Shown here: piece after piece, positions 16,621 through 25,325 of the stretch
Numbering within the stretch: position 1 is the first letter of the stretch
How the letters are laid out: every line of letters begins with the position of its first letter
Assembly: GCA_943354905.1 (NCBI GenBank)
Contig: CALRDL010000003.1
Span: 1 to 63,154 of the forward strand
Reading direction: 5' to 3'
DNA length: 63,154 bases
Source: Candidatus Nomurabacteria bacterium
GTDB lineage: Bacteria; Patescibacteriota; Minisyncoccia; Phycocordibacterales; UBA9973
The notes under the pieces: generated by a model
Told to the model about the DNA's origin: nothing
Databases searched by the model: none
What the model saw: only the letters and a program-made list of their open reading frames with translations
Made by a program: the position numbers and the translations under genes

Positions 16621-18561
16621 TTATTCTACTACTATGCCTCCGCCCGACGGAAACAATGGCTCATTGTTTAATGTGATATTAAGCAAGTCCTTCTTGACCT
16701 TTATATCCACCTTAGCAAAATCATCATACCCAGTCAAAGTCGCTTCTTTGATAAGAATCGGACTAGAACCAAGCTGGGAAATTGATGGAGAAAATCCAAC
16801 TTGAAAAGAAACACTACGATCAACTCCGGAAACACCAGCACCTCTAGGGATAGAACCTGCATTCCAAATAATTTCACGTGTAGAAGAATTATAAACCAGA
16901 TCTTCAGTGGCTGGAGAAATAGTTCCCATAAATTTAATCCAAGTAGGTAAACTCGACGTCACGACACTTTTTGAAATATTATTTGCAGTATTAGAAAGAG
17001 ACCAAGTGATGGTATAAGTCGTTTCTTTTTCAACTTTTGGTGGAACAACACCCTTATTGGTGAAAGGTCCAGAATAATATAACGCTTTATTTGTAAATCC
17101 AACATCAGAAATAATCCGGATTGTTGAAGAAGAAAGATTGTCTAAATCCTTCGATGCATAATTCTCGATCAATTGTTTACCAGAGATAGAGACGTCAATA
17201 TTGACCACGGGATTGGAAAGTATCCCACTTCCAGCAGAAAACAATGAGATTGTAGAAAGTGTAAAATTCACATAACCAGAACCTCCTGGGTTAACTTCTT
17301 TAAACGAAGAAATAGAATTTTTATCCCAAACAATAGTATCAGAAGAAGAATTATAAAAACCTTGTTCGACATCAATACTTTTTTCATTTACAGCATTACC
17401 CTTAATTTTAGCTCGGATTTCTAAATCATTCACATTTGTATCTAAATTATTTATCCATTCTATTTTACCATTAATAGAATTCTTGGCAGAACTCACATAT
17501 TCTCGCCCAGCTATACCATTTATGAAAAGTCTGGCTTCAATAAATGGTTTTTGTATAGAGACGATATGTGAAGAAGAATTATATATTATATCAAACATAG
17601 ATTTATCAGAGAAAGATTGCGTTCCGCTCGAGACCTGAAATGCTTTTTGTTCACCATCAAAGACATCTAGCATCTTACCCAAGAGAGCAATATCTTTTTC
17701 TCCACCTGGGGCAATATCTCCCAGACTCCAAATATTATTTCCGAGTGATGGTGCTGGATTAGCAGAAATAAAAACAAAACCCACAGGATAATCTATCTTA
17801 ATTAAAGTTCTAGTAGCTGGTTTGAGCGAATTCAAAACAACTTTTATATTCATATTGATATCCTGATTTGGACTAATACTAGATGGTGCATCTACGGAAA
17901 TATTAAGAGGTGTAGAACTAATAGTCACCTCATATGGTTTTTCTTTTACAAAAATAGCATTTGAGCCCTCTACTCTATATTCCAGAGAAATTTTTATAGA
18001 ACGTAAGCTTCCTTGCTCACCAAAGAGAATCAATTTTATATTTTCATTATGGATTTCTCCAGCGGAAATCCCCCCAATTGAAGTGCGACTTCTTTCAGTA
18101 GAATTTACACCTGAAATACTAGAACTTTTTGGATACTCAACAATAAGATCAACTAGATCGAGGGAAGAACTATTTCTATTTTTTATTTCAACAATAAAAG
18201 AAAAATCTTCTCCCCCCGCAACAAAATTACTTCCAATAACTGATATGTCTATATTTTCATTAGAAACAGTATTGCCTCCTTTGAAGAACATAAAAGAAGC
18301 GTAGCTAAGTGTTAGAACAAAAAATACTAGAGAAAAGTAAAAGAAATTTTTAAATACGGAAGTTTTCATAAAAAAGTTTTTAGAAGAATCCTGAGATGAA
18401 GCTGATGTATAGTTTTCGTCACCCCAACTATCTTTAATTTCTTTAACTCGAATCTCAGTAAACTTATCATGATGCTCTATTTTTTGTTCGTAATTTTTAC
18501 TGAAAAGTTTATTTTTTAATTCTTCTAATCTATTTAATTTATCTTTATCACCTACAGCCAT
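16621..18561 (-). CDS. Large membrane-anchored, beta-rich extracytoplasmic protein (hypothetical)
   Basis: 646 aa. A cytoplasmic N-terminus and one TM helix (FFYFSLVFFVLTLSYASFMFF) are followed by repetitive S/N/I-rich beta-like segments. Confidence 0.6.
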   Translation of the reverse strand: MAVGDKDKLNRLEELKNKLFSKNYEQKIEHHDKFTEIRVKEIKDSWGDENYTSASSQDSSKNFFMKTSVFKNFFYFSLVFFVLTLSYASFMFFKGGNTVSNENIDISVIGSNFVAGGEDFSFIVEIKNRNSSSLDLVDLIVEYPKSSSISGVNSTERSRTSIGGISAGEIHNENIKLILFGEQGSLRSIKISLEYRVEGSNAIFVKEKPYEVTISSTPLNISVDAPSSISPNQDINMNIKVVLNSLKPATRTLIKIDYPVGFVFISANPAPSLGNNIWSLGDIAPGGEKDIALLGKMLDVFDGEQKAFQVSSGTQSFSDKSMFDIIYNSSSHIVSIQKPFIEARLFINGIAGREYVSSAKNSINGKIEWINNLDTNVNDLEIRAKIKGNAVNEKSIDVEQGFYNSSSDTIVWDKNSISSFKEVNPGGSGYVNFTLSTISLFSAGSGILSNPVVNIDVSISGKQLIENYASKDLDNLSSSTIRIISDVGFTNKALYYSGPFTNKGVVPPKVEKETTYTITWSLSNTANNISKSVVTSSLPTWIKFMGTISPATEDLVYNSSTREIIWNAGSIPRGAGVSGVDRSVSFQVGFSPSISQLGSSPILIKEATLTGYDDFAKVDIKVKKDLLNITLNNEPLFPSGGGIVVE

Positions 18562-18580
18562 TTTGATATTATATCACAAA

Positions 18581-19162
18581 TTACAAATGTGTTTCTTTTA
18601 GGGCATTGTTGATCTCAACAAGAATTATTTTTCTATCTTTTCTAGCTTTAAATATTAAATCTTTTTCAAATGGCGATTTGATAAAATTCTCTAAGACATC
18701 ATGACTTCCTATGTATCCTAAGTTGTTTATAATCCGCAAAACTAGAATAGCTTCTATGTTTTGCAAATCCTCTTTTGTCTCCGTTTTCTCCAGCAACAGC
18801 AAGCCATCGAGTAGATCTATAAATAATTCTCTATTTGGCTCAACACCGGCGAGTAAACGCCGAAGCAAACGTGCAATACTAGCGAAAACTTTTAGATTGA
18901 CAGATTTTTTAGTTATCTCCTCTAAAATATTTGTCTTCTCAGCAGTCGTGATCCGCCAAAAATCTTTACCTTGAACTAAATCAATCTTTAGGTATGCAAA
19001 ATCTTGCAAAACAAAACGAAGCTTTGAGGAAATCTTGCGAACACCTTGAGCACTAGCATAGATCATCCCAAGATCGCGAGTAAAAATAAAATAATACTTC
19101 CCCGCCTCGCCAGAATTCTTACTTCCTAATATTATCCCCTCCGTGTGATGAATGTGGTGCAT
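18581..19162 (-). CDS. recO: DNA repair protein RecO
   Basis: TEGIILGSKNSGEAGKYYFIFTRDLGMIYASAQGVRK OB-fold N-terminus. Confidence 0.75.
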   Translation of the reverse strand: MHHIHHTEGIILGSKNSGEAGKYYFIFTRDLGMIYASAQGVRKISSKLRFVLQDFAYLKIDLVQGKDFWRITTAEKTNILEEITKKSVNLKVFASIARLLRRLLAGVEPNRELFIDLLDGLLLLEKTETKEDLQNIEAILVLRIINNLGYIGSHDVLENFIKSPFEKDLIFKARKDRKIILVEINNALKETHL

Positions 19163-19800
19163 TAAAATTCTTCTTCTTTGCCTATTTCTAAATTTTTGAA
19201 ACTAATACCCAATTCTTTCAAGAAATTTTCTGGATTTTTCCAGATGAATGATGCCCAACTATGAATAAAACCATCGTGCACAGGAAAAACTATTCTTGGA
19301 TTAATATTTTTTGCATAATTAATCGCCTCCCCTATTTTCATCCACGGACCAGCCGTAGGAAGAGCGAGAATATCCACATCATGATCTGGGTAGTTAAAAG
19401 CATCTCCGGCATAGCACAAATTATCTATCATATAACCTGTATTCTGAACCTGTTTCATTGTGATATAAGTTTCTGCATGCAAATTACCAAAACCCACAAT
19501 CTGTACATCTTTAAAATCGTACTTCTGTCCCTCCTCTACTTTTGTATATTTAATATTTATTTCATCAAGTATTTTTCCAACAGCAGTATTTGTTATTATT
19601 GTGGCAGTAGGGTTATTTTCTAAAACTATCTTCAATGAGTCTATGTGCAAGTGATCAGGATGTTCATGAGTAATCAAAACTAGATCAATGTTCTTTTCTT
19701 CATTTTGTAGAGTTGAAAAAGAACCAGGATCAGTCATAACCCTCACCCCTATTTTAGGCTCCACCACAAAACAACAATGCCCAAGCTTTTTAATCTTCAT
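19162..19800 (-). CDS. MBL-fold metallo-hydrolase
   Basis: ITHEHPDHLH motif. ATGA overlap with the ileS stop. Confidence 0.8.
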   Translation of the reverse strand: MKIKKLGHCCFVVEPKIGVRVMTDPGSFSTLQNEEKNIDLVLITHEHPDHLHIDSLKIVLENNPTATIITNTAVGKILDEINIKYTKVEEGQKYDFKDVQIVGFGNLHAETYITMKQVQNTGYMIDNLCYAGDAFNYPDHDVDILALPTAGPWMKIGEAINYAKNINPRIVFPVHDGFIHSWASFIWKNPENFLKELGISFKNLEIGKEEEF

Positions 19801-22800
19801 ATTTTTATTTTAGCAATTTCTACTTTGAATACCAAATTGTCTACTTTAACTTCCTGCCCGCCATTACCTTTGAATTCTATTTTAGAAACTAGAACAGTTT
19901 TTTTCATATCTGCTTCAAATTTTTGAATCAATTCTTTGCCTTTTCCATCGGTTTCAAAAGAAATAGACACTATTTCACTCGGAGTCAATCCGAAATTCTT
20001 TCGCATATCTTGCAAAGCTCGCACAAGCTCGCGATAATTTCCTTCTTGTTTTAATTCAAAAGTTATTTCATCATCAAGCAAGACTTTTGATTCAAGATTT
20101 TTATTTTCTTTAACTTCTTTTACATTTAATTCGTCTTTAATTAGTTCTATGTATTCTATGCCTAGTGAAAAATCTTTTATTTCTAATTTGGAAAGTGGTT
20201 GACGAACGGCTATTTTAGCTTTTTGTCTAGCTTCGAGACCTAGAGAAACGACATCTCTCACAATCTGCATATTTTTCAATATTGCGTCTTCTTTGTGGCC
20301 AAAAATATCAAAAATACTTTTTGATATTTTTGGCCACTCTGCCAAGTGCACACTCTGTGTGTCACTTTCATTTTTTAATTTCAACCAAATATCCTCAGCA
20401 GTAAATGGAGCAAATGGAGCAAATAATTTTGCAAGAGTTTTCAAAACAAAATACAAAGTTTGTTTTGCCTCTACGTCTCCTTCTTTGATTCTTTCACGAG
20501 AACGACGCAGATACCAAGTCGAAAGATCTCCAATAAAATCTCGTACCGCACGAACTGGTTCGAGAAGTTTATAACTATCCAAATTTTCGGTAGAAATTTT
20601 TATAAGTTCATTTAGTCTAGCCACAATCCAAGCATCTAAAATGTTTTCTGACTTTTTATATTCCAACTTTTCTAATTCTTGATCTCGATATAATTCATAA
20701 AACGCCAAGACGTTATAAAGCAAGCTAAAAACTTGCTGTTGAAGAAGAGAGACAGTTTTCTCATCAAAGTTTTTTGATTCACCGGGTTGATTCACAGAAT
20801 ACATCCAGAGACGTAAAGTGTCGACACCATATTTATTCATCATCTCCCAAGGATCAACAATATTTCCTATGGATTTAGACATTTTCTTGCCTTGAGCATC
20901 AAGCAAATGCCCAAGACAAATCACATTTTTATACGCCTTTCCTCGACCAACAAGCACTCCAATCGCATGCAAAGTGTAGAACCAGCCACGAGTTTGGTCT
21001 ATAGCTTCTGAGATAAAATCCGCGGGAAAACCCGACCCATCTACCCATTTTTTATTTTCAAAAGGATAATGATCCTGAGCAAAAGGCATACAACCAGAAT
21101 CAAACCAGACATCCATCACTTCTTTTGTGCGGGTCATATCGCCACCACAACTACACTCTAAATTAATTTCATCAATAAATGGTTTGTGTAAATCTAATTC
21201 GTATTCAACATTATGTGGAAGGGGAATAAATTCATGTTCTCGGTGAAGTTCTCCTGTTTTATTTTTTATTTTCGAATGGAAAATTTCTAAAGAGCGAGCT
21301 TTATCAGCACCTTCAATCACGGCTGGAATTAATTCCAACGACAAACCATGCGAAACAATCAAAATAGTTTCATTTTTATATTTTTGATCGATATCATACA
21401 AAAATTCTCCAAAACGTCTCTTACCATCTTGAAAACTCTCCCCTCCTGGAATTTTAGTATCGAAAGTCCAAGTCTTACCCTCCATAAAATCCCAATAGTC
21501 TTGCACCGGACGTTCTCCGAATTCTCCAAATTCAAGTTCGTGTAGACGTTCATCAATAATGATATTTTCTTTTGGAAATCCTATTTTTTCTGCCACTATA
21601 TCTGCCGTTTCACGAGTTCGTAAAAATGGGGAACAGAAAATTTGAGTTATTTTTTCCTGCCTGCGCAGGCAGGTATTTTTCAAATGTTCCACAGTCTCGT
21701 GCACTTGCGATTTACCTTTTTCTGTCAAGTGATTTTTATTCCGATCGGAAGAATAAATATTTTTAGCATTATTTTCAGCTTCCCCATGACGCATCACGAA
21801 ATATTTATTTTTAGATTTCTTTGATTTATTTTTTAAATCTTCCAAACTTCCTACTACATGTCTCTTCTCGCACTTGCCGCAAATCCAAACAGGTAGTGGA
21901 GTTCCCCAATATCTCTCACGCGATATAGCCCAATCTTTTATTTCACGTAGCCATTCGCCAAAACGCCCATCTCGGATGTATGCTGGCTCCCAATTGATCG
22001 TCTTATTTTCTTCGATCATTTCTTTTTTTATTTTCGGATCCGACATACGGATATACCAAGAATCACGCGCATAGTATATGAGCGCAGTTTTGCAACGCCA
22101 ACAATGCGGGTAGCTATGTTTATAATTTTCTTGTTTAAAAAATAAATTTCGCTTTTTTAGATCTTCGATGATGTCTAGAGCTAGGGTTGGCTTACCCGGC
22201 CCACCAACAATACCGCCATCAACTTCTTTAACAAATCTACCTTCTAAAAATCCAGTGCCCGATAAAAATTTTCCATCAAGGCCGACGAGATGGTGTTTTG
22301 GTAAACCAACCTCTGTGCCTAACACAAAATCGTCCTGTCCATACATAACAGCTGTATGCACGATTCCCGTACCATCGGTAGTATTCACAAAATTTGCAGT
22401 ATAGACTTTATAAGCCTTATCCATTTTTGTTTTTTCACTTTCAGAAATAGTCTCTGCGAGATACGGAAAAAGTGGTTCGTATTCTAGCCCGACTAGATCT
22501 TTACCCTTAAATTCTGAAATTAATTCATAATTTTCTAGTAGAGATAATTTAGATTTTGCAAGAATATACACACCTCCAGACGATCTATAAATTCCATGGT
22601 CTTGTGGGGCATTTAAAACGACCACTATCTTTTCTCTTACTTTTACATAATCTATATCTTCCCCCACAGCCAAAGCAACATTCCCCGGCAATGTCCATGG
22701 TGTCGTCGTCCACGCAAGAATGTAAGTATTATCTTGTCCTTTTAATTTGAATTTAACATAAACCGATAAATCTTTCACATCTTCATATCCCTGAGCGAGT

Positions 22801-23384
22801 TCATGACTAGACAAAGCCGTCCCACATCTCGGACACCAAGGCACAACTTTATAATCTTTATACAAAAGTTTTTGTTCGTCGATTTTTTTTACCACACTCC
22901 AAAGAGATTCAATATAGTCGTTATGATAAGTAACATAAGCATTTTCTTGATCAGCCCAATATCCCATTCTTTGAGTAAAATCTTTCCATAAATCTATAAA
23001 TTCCCAAACACTGTCTTTGCAAAGTTTATTAAAAGCGGCTATGCCATAATTCTCGATATCATTTTTTGACTTAAAGCCAAGTTTTTTTTCTATTTGTAAT
23101 TCCACCGGAAGTCCGTGTGTATCCCAACCACCCTTCCTGTGTGCATGGAAGCCTTGCATAGTTTTGTATCTAGGTATTACATCTTTAAAAGAAAACGGCA
23201 CCATGGTGTGAAGAACCGGTTTAGAATTTGCTGTAACCGGTCCATCGTAAAAAACAAATTCCTTACCGCCCTCACGATTTTTAACTGATTTCTTAAAAAT
23301 TTTATTCTCACGCCAAAATTCCAAAACACGCTCTTCTCGAAGAGCTACCTCACTTTTGTTATTTTTTACATTTTCGTCTTGCAT
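19797..23384 (-). CDS. ileS: Isoleucyl-tRNA synthetase (type 2-like) with an inserted histidine-phosphatase domain
   Basis: KMSKS (GKKMSKSIGN), WCPRCGTAL, WAISRERYWGTPLP and DVWFDSG motifs. The likely start is MQDENVK at 23384. Aa 541-735 form a PGAM-like insert (MRHGEAENN...CSPFLRTRETA...IVSHG). Confidence 0.9.
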   Translation of the reverse strand: MQDENVKNNKSEVALREERVLEFWRENKIFKKSVKNREGGKEFVFYDGPVTANSKPVLHTMVPFSFKDVIPRYKTMQGFHAHRKGGWDTHGLPVELQIEKKLGFKSKNDIENYGIAAFNKLCKDSVWEFIDLWKDFTQRMGYWADQENAYVTYHNDYIESLWSVVKKIDEQKLLYKDYKVVPWCPRCGTALSSHELAQGYEDVKDLSVYVKFKLKGQDNTYILAWTTTPWTLPGNVALAVGEDIDYVKVREKIVVVLNAPQDHGIYRSSGGVYILAKSKLSLLENYELISEFKGKDLVGLEYEPLFPYLAETISESEKTKMDKAYKVYTANFVNTTDGTGIVHTAVMYGQDDFVLGTEVGLPKHHLVGLDGKFLSGTGFLEGRFVKEVDGGIVGGPGKPTLALDIIEDLKKRNLFFKQENYKHSYPHCWRCKTALIYYARDSWYIRMSDPKIKKEMIEENKTINWEPAYIRDGRFGEWLREIKDWAISRERYWGTPLPVWICGKCEKRHVVGSLEDLKNKSKKSKNKYFVMRHGEAENNAKNIYSSDRNKNHLTEKGKSQVHETVEHLKNTCLRRQEKITQIFCSPFLRTRETADIVAEKIGFPKENIIIDERLHELEFGEFGERPVQDYWDFMEGKTWTFDTKIPGGESFQDGKRRFGEFLYDIDQKYKNETILIVSHGLSLELIPAVIEGADKARSLEIFHSKIKNKTGELHREHEFIPLPHNVEYELDLHKPFIDEINLECSCGGDMTRTKEVMDVWFDSGCMPFAQDHYPFENKKWVDGSGFPADFISEAIDQTRGWFYTLHAIGVLVGRGKAYKNVICLGHLLDAQGKKMSKSIGNIVDPWEMMNKYGVDTLRLWMYSVNQPGESKNFDEKTVSLLQQQVFSLLYNVLAFYELYRDQELEKLEYKKSENILDAWIVARLNELIKISTENLDSYKLLEPVRAVRDFIGDLSTWYLRRSRERIKEGDVEAKQTLYFVLKTLAKLFAPFAPFTAEDIWLKLKNESDTQSVHLAEWPKISKSIFDIFGHKEDAILKNMQIVRDVVSLGLEARQKAKIAVRQPLSKLEIKDFSLGIEYIELIKDELNVKEVKENKNLESKVLLDDEITFELKQEGNYRELVRALQDMRKNFGLTPSEIVSISFETDGKGKELIQKFEADMKKTVLVSKIEFKGNGGQEVKVDNLVFKVEIAKIKI
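21656..21677. repeat. GC-rich palindromic element, family B (cctgcctgcgcaggcagg+tatt) inside ileS
   Basis: Perfect 18-nt palindrome. The identical 22-mer recurs at 34393-34414. Confidence 0.9.
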
Positions 23385-23406
23385 GTTTTTATAAATTTTT
23401 ATAAAT

Positions 23407-23590
23407 AAAAAAAACCCGTCCACATACAACAATAATAAAATTGTTATACAAGGACGAGTTTTTGACCCGTGGTACCACCTTTGTTACTTCTCATTTAATG
23501 GGTTCTACTTTCGACTAGGTCTTGCCTAGCGATTTCTTCCCGAAGCATGCCCACCATATTGGAGGACTCAGGAGTGATAACTCCTTCAAC
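23407..23590 (-). promoter_or_regulatory. T-box leader (tRNA-sensing riboswitch) of ileS with an intrinsic terminator
   Basis: The minus strand reads AACAAAGGUGGUACCACGG (reverse complement of 23467-23482), close to the T-box consensus. A long terminator hairpin with U8 follows (23407-23458). An upstream hairpin AGGAGU-UAUC-ACUCCU (23570-23585) contains an Ile AUC codon. Confidence 0.6.
23512..23531. repeat. Family C hairpin (stem-agg tcttg cct-stem) inside the T-box leader
   Basis: cgactagg-tcttg-cctagcg. Confidence 0.6.
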
Positions 23591-23658: not shown

Positions 23659-23928
23659 ATGGAACAAGAACCAAAAAGAGAAGTTATAGAAAGGATAGAA
23701 AAGGCCGCTGTTAGAACTCCAGATGGTAAAATCTATGCTCGTCAGACACATGAAGACGTCTACGCTTGGAATCCACAAGCCAGCACTGAGGGTAGAGAAG
23801 AAGGATTTATCACAAACACTGGAAGGTTTATATCTAGAGAAAAAGCGGGAGAAATCGCTTTCAAAGCAGGACAAACAAAAGAAAGGAAAAACTCTTTAAC
23901 CAGTCCAGATATTTTTGATTTAAGATAA
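23659..23928 (+). CDS. Small hypothetical protein
   Basis: 89 aa with protein-like composition (VRTPDGKIYARQTHEDVY...GFITNTGRFISREKAGEIAFKAGQ). The overlapping minus-strand ORF is F/S/C-rich and less plausible. Confidence 0.5.
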   Translation: MEQEPKREVIERIEKAAVRTPDGKIYARQTHEDVYAWNPQASTEGREEGFITNTGRFISREKAGEIAFKAGQTKERKNSLTSPDIFDLR

Positions 23929-23930
23929 CT

Positions 23931-25325
23931 CTATTTTTTCTTTCCGGACACCTTTCCTCCAAAAGATGTTACAAAATCATCATGCATTTTTTTGAGTTCG
24001 GTTGTGGAAAGTTTACCGAACACGACCTGCGCCTCTTCTGAATTTTTTTTAAAATAAATATCTTTTTCTAAAATTTCGGGATGAACTTTGAATGCATGGT
24101 CATTAATACCGAGTAGATAAAGTCCAGAAAGTCTCCGTACCCGAGAAAGAGCTACATATCCCTGACCAAATTCAAAGACTTGTGAGAGATCCATCACGGC
24201 AGCATCTAGACTCATACCCTGACTCTTGTGGACGGTCATAGCCCAAGCCAAGCGAAGAGGAATCTGGGTGATCTGGGCTCGACTCTTTCCATTTTCTTCC
24301 ACACTCCAATCCATAGGTGCCACAGTAATGCTGTAACCATTTTTGGTTTTAATTACTGGGTGACCACTAAATTCATCAAACTCAGTCACAACACCAAGTG
24401 TACCATTCACAAATCTTTCTTTTTGATTATTTTTAGTACACATAACCACTGCTCCAATTTTTAATTCTAAATTTTCTGGTGACAGACATCCTTTTTTTAA
24501 AGTCTCAATCATTTTTTCATTACCATCTCCCGACATTTGAAAACATTTCACTTCATCTTCGAGTTTAGCAAGCTCGGTATTGTTCACTCGATCTACATCC
24601 AAATTATGCGAATATAGTTTGGTAATATTTTCCGGCATATCGCCCCAATCTATTTGTCTTTCTTTTATATGTTTAAAATGTTTTTCAGAAATATTATTAC
24701 TCCGAATAGCCGAAAGAACTGAGAGAAGATCCTTGTCATCTTGGCGATGCTGTTCAGACAAATAACACACCACAAACCTAGCCCTGTCCCAAGCTCCGCT
24801 ATTGTATGCAAAATTCCCCACAAGTCCGACTTGTGGGATAAGTGAATTTTGTTTTTCACTATATTCCTTCTCTCTAAAATCTTTTTTAACAATCGGTGGT
24901 AATTGAAAAAAATCTCCAACAAGAACAACTTGCATCCCGCCAAAGGCTTCGCTTTTTTGTTTTATTTCTCGACAAACTAGATCAACCATATCCAGCATGC
25001 CATGAGAAAGCATAGAAACTTCATCAATAATTAAAACTTTTGTGCGATTAACTCTCTTTACAATATATTCACTGCTAGCAATTTTATCTAGATCGTATTT
25101 ATCTAATTTATTTTTTATTCCAATACCACTCCACGAATGGATAGTCATACCCCCGATATGGGTAGCAGCAATACCAGTCGAAGCTGTTACAGCTAAATCT
25201 ATATCACGATCACGCAAATAATTCACCAAATTATTTATCGTGTGAGTTTTCCCAGCACCGGGTTCACCAGTCAAGAAAACATTCGCACCAGTTTTTAAAA
25301 TGTTCAAAGCTTGCTCTTGAGTCAT
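23931..25325 (-). CDS. PIF1/RecD-like superfamily 1 DNA helicase
   Basis: Walker A FLTGEPGAGKTH, LIIDEVSM and VHKSQG motifs. Confidence 0.8.
   Translation of the reverse strand: MTQEQALNILKTGANVFLTGEPGAGKTHTINNLVNYLRDRDIDLAVTASTGIAATHIGGMTIHSWSGIGIKNKLDKYDLDKIASSEYIVKRVNRTKVLIIDEVSMLSHGMLDMVDLVCREIKQKSEAFGGMQVVLVGDFFQLPPIVKKDFREKEYSEKQNSLIPQVGLVGNFAYNSGAWDRARFVVCYLSEQHRQDDKDLLSVLSAIRSNNISEKHFKHIKERQIDWGDMPENITKLYSHNLDVDRVNNTELAKLEDEVKCFQMSGDGNEKMIETLKKGCLSPENLELKIGAVVMCTKNNQKERFVNGTLGVVTEFDEFSGHPVIKTKNGYSITVAPMDWSVEENGKSRAQITQIPLRLAWAMTVHKSQGMSLDAAVMDLSQVFEFGQGYVALSRVRRLSGLYLLGINDHAFKVHPEILEKDIYFKKNSEEAQVVFGKLSTTELKKMHDDFVTSFGGKVSGKKK

What the first reader, a model, noticed from the sequence alone, without database searches (positions are those of the whole stretch)
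21228..21812. Apparently intact histidine-phosphatase (PGAM-like) domain inserted within isoleucyl-tRNA synthetase
The insert lies between the IleRS segments [33 protein letters not shown] and [34 protein letters not shown]. As I recall it, type-2 IleRS has only about 15 aa between these segments. Here there are about 195 aa carrying all the hallmarks of the histidine phosphatase superfamily: FVMRHGEAENN (RHG), CSPFLRTRETA, LHELEFGEFG, GGESF and IVSHG. The reading frame is continuous and the flanking synthetase motifs (KMSKS and others) are intact. I do not know of an aaRS with an embedded phosphatase. Candidate roles are hydrolysis of a phosphorylated or adenylated intermediate or alarmone, or regulatory dephosphorylation.
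Basis: partly seen in the sequence, partly recalled or inferred. Interest (0 to 1): 0.75.

Follow-up and report, generated by a model that had tools for sequence, protein, structure and literature searches.

The report
Active phosphatase domain embedded inside IleRS
The enzyme that loads isoleucine onto its tRNA in this uncultured, small-genome bacterium carries a complete and apparently active phosphatase inside its catalytic region; hundreds of related species keep this pairing, which I found in no paper and whose purpose is unknown.

Summary
One continuous ORF (19797-23384, minus strand, 1195 aa) encodes a type-2 isoleucyl-tRNA synthetase. About 203 extra residues (nt 21219-21827) replace roughly 2 residues of reference IleRS2. 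They match Pfam His_Phos_1 (E 1e-28 to 1e-30) and fold confidently (pLDDT about 90).

It is not an assembly artefact. The same insertion occurs in over 120 protein clusters and in at least 557 GTDB species genomes, with the top 80 all Patescibacteria. The catalytic residues (Arg, His, Arg, Glu, Glu, His) are essentially invariant.

Three new results show that the phosphatase and IleRS are functionally linked:
- In 5 of 6 lineages sampled, the closest stand-alone homologue (about 195 aa) lies immediately upstream of an ileS gene that has no insert.
- In Gracilibacteria/Peregrinibacteria-type IleRS the same domain sits at three other sites around the KMSKS segment, in up to four copies, all with catalytic residues kept.
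- One of those sites can instead hold a HAD phosphatase, a GNAT, a serine hydrolase, DUF559 or a P-loop kinase.

The substrate is unknown. My best inference is that the domain removes a blocking phosphate from a nucleotide-type ligand at the aminoacylation site. I found no publication. Novelty: new variant of a known kind. Interest 0.78.

The parts
19797..23384 (-). ileS gene: type-2 isoleucyl-tRNA synthetase with an embedded phosphatase, 1195 aa plus stop
   Evidence: ORF. The start at the ATG at 23384 comes from orthologue alignment. TIGR00392 scores 857 bits. The best solved relatives are IleRS2 8c8v/8c8w.
21828..23384 (-). N-terminal part of IleRS (residues 1-519): first half of the catalytic HUP/Rossmann fold, CP1 with the editing domain, and the start of CP2
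   Evidence: Aligns to 8c8w residues 5-476. The editing motifs TTTPWT (226), GTGIVH (338) and YGQDD (348) are present.
23205..23216 (-). Class I signature motif, non-canonical: VLHT (residues 57-60) in place of HxGH or G/AxHH
   Evidence: Of 120 orthologues, 35 share VLHT and most of the others read GIHH.
21870..21881 (-). First Cys pair (CGKC, C502/C505) of the CP2 zinc knuckle, just upstream of the insert
   Evidence: Cys is present in 116 of 120 orthologues.
21219..21827 (-). Inserted segment (residues 520-722, 203 aa): the whole histidine-phosphatase unit, including a basic N-terminal linker and a C-terminal helix plus strand that returns the chain to IleRS
   Evidence: Absent from reference IleRS2. 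AlphaFold pLDDT is mostly 87-96, falling to about 70 in the last two 10-residue blocks. Both its ends match the ends of stand-alone homologues (NKYYILRHGE... / ...GEVRELN).
21291..21800 (-). His_Phos_1 (PF00300) core as delimited by Pfam
   Evidence: E 1.4e-28. Fold match to 4ij6, 6e4b and 1h2e.
21786..21791 (-). Codons for R532-H533 of the RHG motif; H533 is the predicted phospho-acceptor
   Evidence: Invariant in 120 of 120. Coordinates checked.
21618..21620 (-). Codon for R589, the second phosphate-binding Arg
   Evidence: Invariant in 120 of 120..
21537..21539 (-). Codon for E616, an invariant acidic residue of the family motif
   Evidence: Present in 120 of 120. E or D in nearly all other copies.
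21438..21440 (-). Codon for E649 (GGES), the predicted proton donor
   Evidence: Present in 117 of 117 ungapped sequences..
21348..21350 (-). Codon for H679 (SHG), the second catalytic His
   Evidence: Invariant in 120 of 120..
21147..21155 (-). Second Cys pair (CSC, C744/C746) of the CP2 zinc knuckle, downstream of the insert
19797..21218 (-). C-terminal part of IleRS (residues 723-1195): rest of CP2, second half of the HUP fold (DVWFDSG 758, DQTRGWF 796, KMSKS 834), the anticodon-binding domain and the type-2 C-terminal domains
   Evidence: Aligns to 8c8w from residue 479 onward. Pfam Anticodon_1 and DUF5915. Motif positions.
20871..20885 (-). KMSKS motif (residues 834-838), intact
   Evidence: Invariant in 120 of 120..

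Best explanation
**Shown**
- The gene encodes a complete type-2 IleRS. A whole histidine phosphatase of about 200 aa (branch 1 of the superfamily) is inserted into the zinc knuckle of connective peptide CP2. This is the surface element that lies between two active-site strands (WxISRxRxWGxP and DxWFDSG).
- Every catalytic residue of the phosphatase is kept, so it should be an active phosphomonoesterase.
- Its closest free-standing relatives are encoded directly upstream of ileS genes that lack the insert. The pairing therefore came first, and the insertion is a later, tighter form of the same partnership.

**Inferred**
- The phosphatase works together with IleRS at or next to the aminoacylation site.
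- I commit to this mechanism: it removes a phosphate from a nucleotide-type ligand that would otherwise block the site. The most likely ligand is a phosphorylated or pyrophosphorylated 3'-terminal adenosine of tRNA-Ile. An adenylate-like phosphorylated inhibitor is nearly as likely.
- The synthetase would thereby clear its own substrate or active site and keep charging tRNA-Ile.

**How sure I am:** about 0.85 that this is an active phosphatase functionally coupled to IleRS, but only about 0.25-0.3 for any one substrate.
For: **Real and intact**
- Pfam, NCBIfam, PDB alignment and AlphaFold all agree.

**Under selection for catalysis**
- R532, H533, G534, R589, E616 and H679 are invariant in 120 of 120 orthologues, and E649 in all 117 ungapped ones. 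Yet the insert is only 50% identical on average, against 73% for the rest of the protein.
- The six catalytic residues tracked across copies (R, H, R, E, E, H) match exactly in 135 of 142, 13 of 17 (plus 3 with Glu to Asp) and 50 of 51 copies at the different sites.

**Widespread**
- More than 120 clusters at 90% identity carry it.
- At least 557 confirmed matches in GTDB species genomes, the top 80 all Patescibacteria.
- 67 of 80 loci hold one unbroken ORF.

**Functional coupling**
- Stand-alone homologues P0267, P0299, P0315, P0288 and P0305 (34-39% identical to the insert where compared) stop 1-8 nt before, or overlap, the start of an insert-less ileS. The operon order is argS, phosphatase, ileS, recO.
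- None of 80 insert-type loci has an extra stand-alone copy nearby.
- The domain occupies four different internal sites, all bracketing the KMSKS-bearing half of the catalytic fold. It is never a terminal fusion, and it reaches 2-4 copies.
- An unrelated HAD phosphatase fills one of these sites in P0450.

**Hints towards nucleotide or tRNA-end chemistry**
- A sub-clade adds a C-terminal HD phosphohydrolase, and others add AAA_33-type P-loop kinases. These are the same enzyme classes found in the HD domain of CCA-adding enzymes and in polynucleotide kinase-phosphatase (my knowledge).
- Toxins that pyrophosphorylate the tRNA CCA end and so block charging do exist (10.1101/2021.04.30.441581; PMC11559606).
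- Among the nearest solved folds, CobC acts on a nucleotide-type substrate, alpha-ribazole 5'-phosphate, and 9mmh on a riboflavin-pathway phosphate; PhoE is reported as a broad-specificity phosphatase (substrates from my knowledge).
Against: - There is no biochemical evidence, and the substrate is not identified.
- I could not read model coordinates, so the distance and orientation of H533 relative to the synthetic site, the KMSKS loop or A76 are not measured.
- The insert has no net positive charge (0; the mean over 152 embedded copies is about 0), which gives no support for RNA binding.
- The best fold matches are all capped small-molecule phosphatases, and the HAD replacement is of the capped HAD_2 type. 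Both favour a small ligand over a macromolecule.
- No toxin that phosphorylates tRNA-Ile specifically is known, and no matching toxin was seen in the window.
- Nothing explains why only IleRS, and no other synthetase, carries the domain.
- PADLOC defence models give no hit.
Confidence: 0.45

Rival explanations
1. Resistance built into the drug target. The embedded domains inactivate small-molecule IleRS inhibitors, or toxic substrate analogues, at the enzyme they attack. The phosphatase would dephosphorylate a phosphorylated adenylate mimic or pro-drug.
For: - The variable slot between DxWFxSG and DQxRGWF holds GNAT, a serine alpha/beta-hydrolase, P-loop kinases, HAD and His_Phos. These are the classic families of antibiotic-modifying enzymes.
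- From my knowledge, the GNAT MccE and the serine peptidase MccF detoxify aminoacyl-adenylate mimics, and mupirocin is inactivated by ester hydrolysis.
- IleRS is a favoured target of natural antibiotics.
- These same IleRS carry G/AxHH-type signature motifs, which are shown to give mupirocin hyper-resistance (PMC10485003).
- Fold neighbours are small-molecule phosphatases.
- Copy-number variation and fast sequence change fit an arms race.
Against: - I know of no natural IleRS inhibitor that carries a phosphomonoester.
- A kinase and a phosphatase in one protein would oppose each other on a single compound.
- DUF559 and Y1 transposase inserts do not fit this picture.
- The phosphatase is nearly universal and ancient in Paceibacteria, which looks more like a core function than a response to one antibiotic.
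Confidence: 0.2
2. Product clearance. The phosphatase hydrolyses AMP or pyrophosphate as it is released by IleRS, pulling aminoacylation forward in organisms with low energy charge or pyrophosphate-based metabolism.
For: - AMP and PPi are the only phosphorylated small molecules that IleRS itself produces.
- HAD_2 enzymes include pyrophosphatases and 5'-nucleotidases, and AAA_18/AAA_33 kinases include adenylate-kinase-like enzymes that also consume AMP (family contents from my knowledge).
- PhoE-type relatives are reported to accept nucleotides (substrate range from my knowledge).
Against: - All twenty synthetases make the same products, yet only IleRS carries the domain.
- A diffusible product does not require an internal insertion at several sites, or multiple copies.
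- Hydrolysing AMP wastes a nucleotide in organisms that must salvage them.
Confidence: 0.12
3. Protein phosphatase acting in cis. The domain removes an inhibitory phosphate placed on IleRS, for example on the Ser of KMSKS, by a HipA-like or other kinase.
For: - Kinase toxins are known to inactivate class I synthetases: HipA on GltX and HipT on TrpS (PMC6581861, PMC8262856).
- The four insertion sites bracket the KMSKS-bearing segment.
- The superfamily contains protein phosphatases such as SixA, PGAM5 and Sts-1 (my knowledge).
- Some IleRS also carry a kinase domain, which would allow a reversible switch.
Against: - No kinase that targets IleRS is known.
- The SixA model scores below its cut-off, 44.7 against 74.5 bits.
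- The best fold matches are small-molecule enzymes.
Confidence: 0.1
4. A fusion of convenience. This is a housekeeping phosphatase with an unrelated metabolic role (phosphoserine, cobalamin or riboflavin type, or a glycolytic mutase) that merely shares expression with ileS. CP2 would simply be a loop that tolerates insertions.
For: - Genome-reduced bacteria often fuse genes.
- The same IleRS regions also accept clearly unrelated inserts: DUF559, an IS200-like transposase domain and a MuF-like piece. This shows structural permissiveness.
- The weak top family hits are metabolic enzymes.
Against: - Terminal fusion would be far easier, yet the domain is always internal. It sits at four different sites close to the active site, with up to four copies.
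- The operon adjacency is maintained in 5 of 6 lineages sampled.
- A non-homologous phosphatase occupies the same slot in P0450.
- It is not a mutase. NCBIfam dPGM scores are far below cut-off (91 against 225 bits), and the query shows no match to the chain's 'WRRS' or 'HGNS' stretches, which I take to be mutase-specific, in the alignment to 1fzt.
Confidence: 0.12
5. Artefact: an assembly chimera, a frameshifted pseudogene, or an intein-like selfish element.
For: Some public long-read assemblies show the gene broken into pieces.
Against: - The frame is continuous here and there is no composition break.
- The same architecture appears in hundreds of independent assemblies at 35-85% insert identity.
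- Pfam finds no Hint/intein domain.
- The catalytic residues are conserved.
Confidence: 0.01

Closest known systems
Bacterial type-2 isoleucyl-tRNA synthetase (IleRS2), e.g. Priestia megaterium IleRS2 (PDB 8c8v/8c8w) and Thermus thermophilus IleRS (1ile)
   Same: - Same domain order and fold: TM 0.83 to 8c8v and 0.92 to 1ile, normalised to the target.
- 31-35% identity.
- Same editing motifs, zinc knuckles, KMSKS and type-2 C-terminal domains.
- A signature motif of the non-canonical kind described for hyper-resistant IleRS2 (PMC10485003).
   Different: - About 203 extra residues forming a phosphatase inside CP2, where the reference has about 2.
- The signature motif goes beyond the described G/AxHH: it reads VLHT, with Val first and Thr in place of the fourth His.
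Branch-1 histidine phosphatases of the PhoE / CobC / PspA type (PDB 1h2e, 6e4b/6nru, 4ij5/4ij6)
   Same: - Same fold, TM about 0.7-0.76, rmsd 2.4-3.3 Å.
- The same catalytic Arg-His-Arg-His set with a Glu proton donor.
   Different: - Only 24-27% identical.
- Below every NCBIfam functional cut-off.
- Embedded in, or encoded next to, a tRNA synthetase rather than in a metabolic pathway.
- Substrate unknown.
NCBIfam NF040702 'ileS_w_GNAT' (isoleucine--tRNA ligase, N-acetyltransferase domain-containing)
   Same: It shows that database curators already recognise IleRS with an embedded enzymatic domain. The GNAT-bearing IleRS I found in Gracilibacteria/Peregrinibacteria usually also carry His_Phos.
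   Different: - The window protein has no GNAT and scores 315 bits against a cut-off of 1999.
- The model's name does not mention the phosphatase.
- I found no paper on either variant.
Bifunctional proteins that pair a branch-1 histidine phosphatase with another enzyme: PFK-2/FBPase-2 (P-loop kinase plus His_Phos) and mycobacterial RNase H/acid phosphatase (NF005567)
   Same: - A His_Phos domain is joined to a nucleotide- or nucleic-acid-handling enzyme.
- NF005567 gives a partial hit of 78-80 bits.
- Some IleRS variants carry kinase plus His_Phos, as PFK-2/FBPase-2 does.
   Different: - Those are end-to-end fusions; here the domain is inserted inside the partner's catalytic region.
- The partner is a tRNA synthetase.
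- Cut-offs are not met (326 bits for NF005567).
tRNA/RNA end-healing enzymes: the HD domain of bacterial CCA-adding enzyme, T4 or cellular polynucleotide kinase-phosphatase, and small alarmone hydrolases that reverse tRNA CCA pyrophosphorylation
   Same: This resembles how the system might work, not what family it belongs to: a phosphohydrolase attached to an enzyme that handles the tRNA 3' end. HD, HAD and AAA_33 kinase domains co-occur in IleRS variants. The blocking chemistry is documented (10.1101/2021.04.30.441581; PMC11782079).
   Different: The phosphatase has a different fold. No activity on RNA ends has been shown. No sequence relationship exists.

Membership tests
Isoleucyl-tRNA synthetase (TIGR00392 ileS) | Whole-protein score above the curated equivalog cut-off | tested here: met
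   857.1 bits against a cut-off of 621.4.
Isoleucyl-tRNA synthetase (class Ia) | KMSKS signature motif | tested here: met
   KMSKS at residues 834-838, invariant in 120 of 120 orthologues.
Isoleucyl-tRNA synthetase (class Ia) | Canonical HxGH signature motif | tested here: not met
   The motif reads VLHT. His is kept only at position 3, as in the G/AxHH variant, but position 1 is Val and position 4 is Thr. The G/AxHH variant is functional in IleRS2 (PMC10485003). Activity with VLHT is untested.
Isoleucyl-tRNA synthetase (class Ia) | CP1 editing domain with the Thr-rich and GTG-x-VH motifs | tested here: met
   TTTPWT at 226, GTGIVH at 338 and YGQDD at 348. T226-T228, P229, T231, G338, G340, H343 and D352 are invariant across 82 sequences.
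Type-2 IleRS (IleRS2) | Type-2 C-terminal domains (no C-terminal zinc-binding domain), and closest to IleRS2 in sequence and fold | tested here: met
   Pfam DUF5915 at the C-terminus. Best PDB sequence hits are 8c8w/8c8u IleRS2 at E 1e-223, against IleRS1 at 1e-88. Foldseek gives the same order.
Histidine phosphatase superfamily, branch 1 (PF00300) | Profile score above the Pfam gathering threshold | tested here: met
   100.4 bits in the whole protein and 105.8 bits for the insert alone, against a threshold of 21.7.
Histidine phosphatase superfamily, branch 1 | Catalytic core: RHG His nucleophile, two Arg, a second His and an acidic proton donor | tested here: met
   R532, H533, R589, H679 and E649 (plus E616) are present and invariant in orthologues. 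The pattern is exact in 198 of 210 embedded copies.
Histidine phosphatase superfamily, branch 1 | Alpha/beta phosphoglycerate-mutase-like fold | tested here: met
   Insert model pLDDT 92.7. TM 0.69-0.76 to 4ij6, 6e4b, 1h2e and 9mmh.
Histidine phosphatase superfamily, branch 1 | Phosphomonoesterase activity through a phospho-histidine intermediate | not testable with these tools
   Needs enzyme assays with wild type and H533A.
Cofactor-dependent phosphoglycerate mutase (dPGM) | Equivalog score, and the mutase-specific residues that bind the second phosphate or carboxylate (WRRS and HGNS motifs, from my knowledge of the family) | tested here: not met
   NF038349 scores 91-93 bits against a cut-off of 225, and other dPGM models score lower still. 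In the alignment to 1fzt the query shows no identity to the chain's 'WrrS' or 'HGnS' stretches. The second is not conserved among orthologues.
Alpha-ribazole phosphatase CobC (TIGR03162) / phosphoserine phosphatase PspA (NF045917) / SixA (TIGR00249) | Score above the curated cut-off | tested here: not met
   80.8 against 162.9; 60.4 against 350; 44.7 against 74.5 bits.
ileS_w_GNAT (NF040702) | IleRS with an embedded GNAT domain, scoring above the cut-off | tested here: not met
   315 bits against 1999. Pfam finds no GNAT domain in the window protein.
Mupirocin-resistance IleRS MupA / MupB (NF000257 / NF000258) | Score above the exception-model cut-off | tested here: not met
   764 and 743 bits against 1900.
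Intein or other self-splicing insert | Hint/intein splicing domain and a homing endonuclease | tested here: not met
   Pfam reports no such domain in the protein. The whole insert is accounted for by the phosphatase fold.

The most novel reading that the evidence does not exclude
In Patescibacteria, IleRS has become a platform carrying a tethered enzyme toolkit. That toolkit nearly always includes a histidine phosphatase, plus in some lineages an HD hydrolase, a GNAT, a P-loop kinase, an esterase or a HAD phosphatase. On this reading the toolkit repairs a chemically blocked tRNA-Ile 3' end, or destroys IleRS-directed inhibitors, at the active site itself. That would be a previously unrecognised kind of self-protection or substrate repair built into a tRNA synthetase.
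Probability: 0.3. Interest if true: 0.9.

Novelty: new variant of a known kind. Interest (0 to 1): 0.78.

Why it matters
Aminoacyl-tRNA synthetases are among the best studied enzymes, and the domains they have acquired (editing, tRNA-binding and signalling modules) have each revealed new biology. To my knowledge, and in nine of ten permitted full-text searches plus targeted reads of four IleRS papers, no one has described a catalytically intact phosphatase placed inside the catalytic region of a synthetase.

Here the pairing is ancient and is present in several hundred species of a major bacterial radiation. It has been re-created at four different sites, and it also exists as a two-gene operon. 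That is strong comparative evidence for a real, unknown functional link between phosphate removal and isoleucine charging.

Working out the substrate could reveal one of three things:
- a new way in which tRNA or a synthetase is blocked and rescued;
- a new class of natural IleRS inhibitors and the resistance to them;
- a thermodynamic adaptation of translation in organisms with minimal metabolism.

The question is directly testable with recombinant protein. The adjacent-gene and inserted forms provide a natural experiment. The altered signature motif (VLHT) may also extend what is known about antibiotic-resistant IleRS.

Tried and rejected
- **Stand-alone relatives from the first search:** The 'stand-alone' phosphatase hits (P0085, P0072, P0043) turned out to be pieces of frameshifted ileS genes in long-read assemblies, not separate genes. 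True stand-alone relatives came only from the exhaustive representative search.
- **GTDB scan with a diverse alignment:** It was redone with a closer alignment.
- **Downstream MBL-fold hydrolase:** This gene (19162-19800) overlaps ileS by 4 nt and looked like a possible partner. It directly follows ileS in only 5 of 67 complete GTDB loci, so I dropped it from the system.
- **Net charge:** This was a proxy for RNA binding. It shows no basic bias.
- **Other libraries and scans:** PADLOC gives no hit. PHROGs gives only a generic family of unknown function. Rfam and tRNA scans of the window find nothing.
- **Glycolytic mutase, CobC, PspA and SixA assignments:** All rejected on curated cut-offs and missing motifs.
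- **Insertion-site classifier:** My first regex put 44 window-type proteins in 'site 2', because their second Cys pair is spaced Cx(8-10)C. I corrected this using the DLHKxFxD landmark.
- **Relationships among copies:** Copies at different sites and stand-alone proteins are all about 33-45% identical to one another, so pairwise scores could not separate repeated capture from intragenic duplication.
- **Geometry:** The tools do not expose model coordinates, so I could not measure the distance from the phosphatase pocket to the synthetic site.
- **Second ileS:** I could not test whether these genomes hold a second, insert-free ileS.


Full report
**1. The observation**

The window has one uninterrupted ORF on the minus strand, 19797..23432. 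Alignment with 120 orthologues puts the true start at the ATG at 23384, giving 1195 aa. I number residues from that Met.

- NCBIfam calls the protein ileS: TIGR00392, 857 bits against a cut-off of 621.
- Against solved structures the best match is Priestia megaterium IleRS2. Query 5-519 aligns to 5-476 and query 723-1115 to 479-869. So 203 residues (520-722, nt 21219-21827) stand where the reference has about two.
- Base composition shows no break across the insert.

**2. The two parts are each intact**

The synthetase keeps these features:
- KMSKS (834-838);
- the editing-domain motifs;
- both zinc knuckles;
- the active-site strands [21 protein letters not shown] and DQTRGWF.

A full-length AlphaFold2 model built on 82 sequences has mean pLDDT 89.1 and pTM 0.85. 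It superposes on IleRS2 structures, with TM 0.83 to 8c8v and 0.92 to 1ile, normalised to the target.

The insert is well ordered in that model, with pLDDT mostly 87-96. Modelled alone it reaches pLDDT 92.7. Its nearest solved folds are branch-1 histidine phosphatases: PspA 4ij6, CobC 6e4b/6nru, PhoE 1h2e, the riboflavin-pathway phosphatase 9mmh and Rv2419c. TM is about 0.7-0.76 at 20-27% identity.

It reaches no curated functional cut-off for dPGM, CobC, PspA or SixA. In the alignment to 1fzt it shows no match to the chain's 'WRRS' and 'HGNS' stretches, which I take to be mutase-specific. It is therefore a phosphatase of unassigned specificity, not a glycolytic mutase.

By the published boundaries for P. 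megaterium IleRS2 (HUP core = residues 40-168 and 513-632), the insertion point (about Pm 476-479) lies in connective peptide CP2. It sits between the two Cys pairs of the CP2 zinc knuckle: C502/C505 upstream and C744/C746 downstream.

**3. It is not an artefact, and it is selected**

- A search with the full protein returned 120 clusters (62-77% identical, 1071-1365 aa), all carrying PF00300. Where named, they come from Nomurabacteria, Paceibacterota and Minisyncoccia.
The best 80 are all Patescibacteria: Nomura-, Zambryski-, Kaiser-, Vogel-, Taylor- and Campbellbacteria, and Paceibacterota.
- In 67 of those 80 loci the gene is one unbroken ORF. The other 13 are cut by contig ends or interrupted.
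- Across the 120 orthologues the insert is only 50% identical on average, against 73% for the rest of the protein. Its length is nearly constant at about 197 aa.
- R532, H533, G534, R589, E616 and H679 are invariant, and E649 is present in all 117 ungapped sequences.

Strong conservation of just the catalytic residues on a fast-evolving background indicates selection for catalysis. No Hint/intein domain is present.

**4. Stand-alone relatives sit next to ileS**

An exhaustive profile-free search with the insert alone found 724 representatives at E < 1e-10. Of the 138 newly retrieved proteins among the best 150, 74 are IleRS or IleRS fragments. The other 64 are small proteins or fragments of at most 418 aa. 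None is another large protein.

I looked up six of the small ones. Five (P0267, P0299, P0315, P0288 and P0305; 189-195 aa) lie directly upstream of an ileS gene that has no insert (931-984 aa where complete). The gap is 1-8 nt, or the genes overlap. The operon order is argS, phosphatase, ileS, recO.

I verified that these IleRS align to the window protein at 17-521 and from 733 onward, with about 12 residues in between. The phosphatases match the insert from its N-terminal 'NKY[FY]xxRHGE' to its C-terminal 'GE[LV]xRE' tail, at 34-39% identity and E 1e-28 to 1e-35. The sixth, P0269, lies elsewhere, among NERD, MazG and Schlafen-like helicase genes.

None of the 80 insert-type loci has an additional stand-alone copy on the same strand within 4 kb.

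So the same phosphatase family is either the immediate neighbour of ileS or sits inside it. This is the classic comparative signature of a functional partnership, and it suggests that a whole neighbouring gene moved into CP2.

**5. Other lineages insert the same domain elsewhere, and other enzymes too**

Some hits carry 2-4 phosphatase domains. Mapping against core motifs shows four insertion sites:
- **Site 1:** inside the CP2 knuckle, before the DLHKxFxD segment. This is the window type, with at least 107 of 204 full-length proteins.
- **Site 2:** after the second Cys pair (10 copies).
- **Site 3:** between DxWFxSG and DQxRGWF, inside the second half of the catalytic fold (17 copies).
- **Site 4:** after KMSKS and before the anticodon-binding domain (51 copies).

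P0260 (1419 aa) uses sites 3 and 4. Its cluster has six members, all 1419 aa, on contigs of up to 1.06 Mb.

A search with P0260 shows that IleRS named Gracilibacteria, Peregrinibacteria and Peribacteria almost all carry PF00300. The catalytic pattern is exact in 135 of 142 copies at sites 1 and 2, in 13 of 17 at site 3 (plus 3 with Glu to Asp), and in 50 of 51 at site 4.

Site 3 behaves as a variable slot. In different proteins it holds:
- His_Phos;
- a HAD_2 phosphatase with no His_Phos anywhere in the protein (P0450);
- a serine alpha/beta-hydrolase (P0440);
- DUF559 (P0402);
- a GNAT (P0401), as recognised by NCBIfam NF040702.

In P0451 an AAA_18/AAA_33 kinase follows a His_Phos copy ahead of the KMSKS segment. 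A Zeta-toxin-like kinase lies after the KMSKS segment in P0467, and an IS200-like domain lies in the editing region of P0473. A sub-clade close to the window protein adds a C-terminal HD domain of about 190 aa.

**6. How it most likely works**

Shown:
- The phosphatase has a complete catalytic apparatus.
- It is held on CP2, between two active-site strands.
- Its association with IleRS is maintained in at least three genomic forms.

Inferred: it acts together with IleRS. My reasons are as follows.
- Simple co-expression would be met by an operon or a terminal fusion. Yet evolution has repeatedly placed the domain inside the catalytic half, at sites that bracket the KMSKS segment.
- It has multiplied the domain.
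- In one lineage it has put an unrelated phosphatase fold in the same slot.

The family hydrolyses phosphomonoesters through a phospho-histidine intermediate (established knowledge). An aminoacyl-adenylate, which is a mixed anhydride, is therefore an unlikely substrate.

I commit to removal of a blocking phosphate from a nucleotide-type ligand at the entrance of the aminoacylation site. The first candidate is a 2'/3'-phosphorylated or pyrophosphorylated A76 of tRNA-Ile. Toxic alarmone synthetases are known to pyrophosphorylate tRNA CCA ends and stop charging, and HD-type hydrolases reverse this (10.1101/2021.04.30.441581; PMC11782079; PMC11559606). The HD and kinase domains seen in IleRS variants are of the classes used in RNA-end healing.

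Almost as likely is inactivation of a phosphorylated adenylate-mimic inhibitor. The slot's other occupants (GNAT, esterase, kinase) are the classic drug-modifying families. These IleRS also carry signature-motif variants of the type shown to give mupirocin hyper-resistance (PMC10485003).

Against the tRNA version:
- the insert has no net positive charge;
- all close fold relatives are capped small-molecule enzymes;
- the HAD substitute is of the capped HAD_2 type.

Nothing yet explains why IleRS alone is involved.

I give 0.85 to 'active phosphatase functionally coupled to IleRS' and 0.25-0.3 to any single substrate. Other rivals are product (AMP or PPi) clearance, cis-dephosphorylation of IleRS after attack by a HipA-like kinase (precedents for GltX and TrpS: PMC6581861, PMC8262856), and an uncoupled fusion.

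**7. Comparison with what is known, and novelty**

The host enzyme is a bona fide IleRS2, except for its signature motif. The insert is a bona fide branch-1 histidine phosphatase that belongs to none of the characterised subfamilies.

The sequences have been public since about 2015, and some are annotated only as 'class I tRNA ligase family protein' or 'isoleucine--tRNA ligase'. One JGI record even reads 'isoleucyl-tRNA synthetase/phosphohistidine phosphatase SixA/...GNAT'.

Full-text searches on several wordings found nothing on a phosphatase in IleRS. Neither the 2023 paper on IleRS2 signature motifs nor a 2026 preprint surveying about 96,000 IleRS sequences mentions Patescibacteria or such an insert. 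The library lacks most subscription-journal papers, so a prior description cannot be excluded.

I rate it a new variant of a known kind: a synthetase that has acquired an accessory domain. The unusual features are that the accessory is a catalytic phosphatase, that it is internal to the catalytic region, and that it recurs at several sites.

**8. Verdict**

Its function is unknown but directly testable. Interest 0.78.

Noticed in passing
window 23205-23216 (-), IleRS residues 57-60: The class I 'HIGH' signature reads VLHT (context PVLHTMVPF). Of 120 orthologues, 35 share it and most others read GIHH. The published non-canonical IleRS2 motif is G/AxHH. Here position 1 is Val and the fourth His is Thr, so this may be a further step of signature-motif remodelling. 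Its effect on activity and mupirocin sensitivity is unknown.
   Followed up: partly
window 19162-19800 (-): An MBL-fold hydrolase gene (Lactamase_B_3, 212 aa) overlaps the ileS stop codon by 4 nt and so looks translationally coupled. It directly follows ileS in only 5 of 67 complete GTDB loci, so it is probably not part of the IleRS-phosphatase unit.
   Followed up: yes
window 16621-19162 (-); loci L002, L003, L086, L089, L091: Synteny is conserved over wide distances in Patescibacteria: ileS, then recO, then a DUF11/CLIPPER-type protein of about 640 aa. RecO lies within 1.5 kb downstream in 49 of 67 loci. In many relatives argS lies upstream of ileS, but in this window a PIF1-like helicase (23931-25325) lies there instead.
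   Followed up: partly
proteins P0147, P0151, P0152, P0156, P0184, P0197, P0201, P0211 (relatives; e.g. locus L011): A sub-clade of close orthologues (1324-1365 aa) has an extra C-terminal HD-domain phosphohydrolase (about residues 1140-1340) in addition to the internal phosphatase. It gives only weak hits to HDIG and 5'-deoxynucleotidase models.
   Followed up: partly
proteins P0390-P0475 (Gracilibacteria/Peregrinibacteria-type IleRS, up to 1859 aa): IleRS in these lineages is a mosaic. It can carry up to three His_Phos copies plus GNAT, AAA_33/AAA_18/Zeta-toxin-like kinase, DUF559 nuclease-like, serine hydrolase, HAD, an IS200-like Y1 transposase domain and a MuF-C-like piece, some of them inside the editing-domain region. 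Whether all these proteins are still functional synthetases is unknown.
   Followed up: partly
loci L001, L002, L003: In several long-read metagenome assemblies the same ileS is split into 3-5 called genes. This produces spurious 'stand-alone' phosphatase and partial synthetase entries in protein databases. It looks like frameshift errors rather than real split genes, but this was not proven.
   Followed up: partly
locus L005 (protein P0269): The one stand-alone relative that is not next to ileS sits among NERD, MazG-like, Schlafen-group-3 helicase and DUF3800 genes. That neighbourhood resembles a defence island.
   Followed up: no
window 1-63154: ARAGORN and Rfam, at gathering thresholds, find no tRNA gene and no Rfam family anywhere in the 63 kb window.
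   Followed up: no
window 23659-23928 (+): An 89-aa ORF lies between ileS and the helicase gene, on the opposite strand, and has no Pfam match. The region shows a local reversal of GC and AT skew (AT skew +0.37).
   Followed up: no
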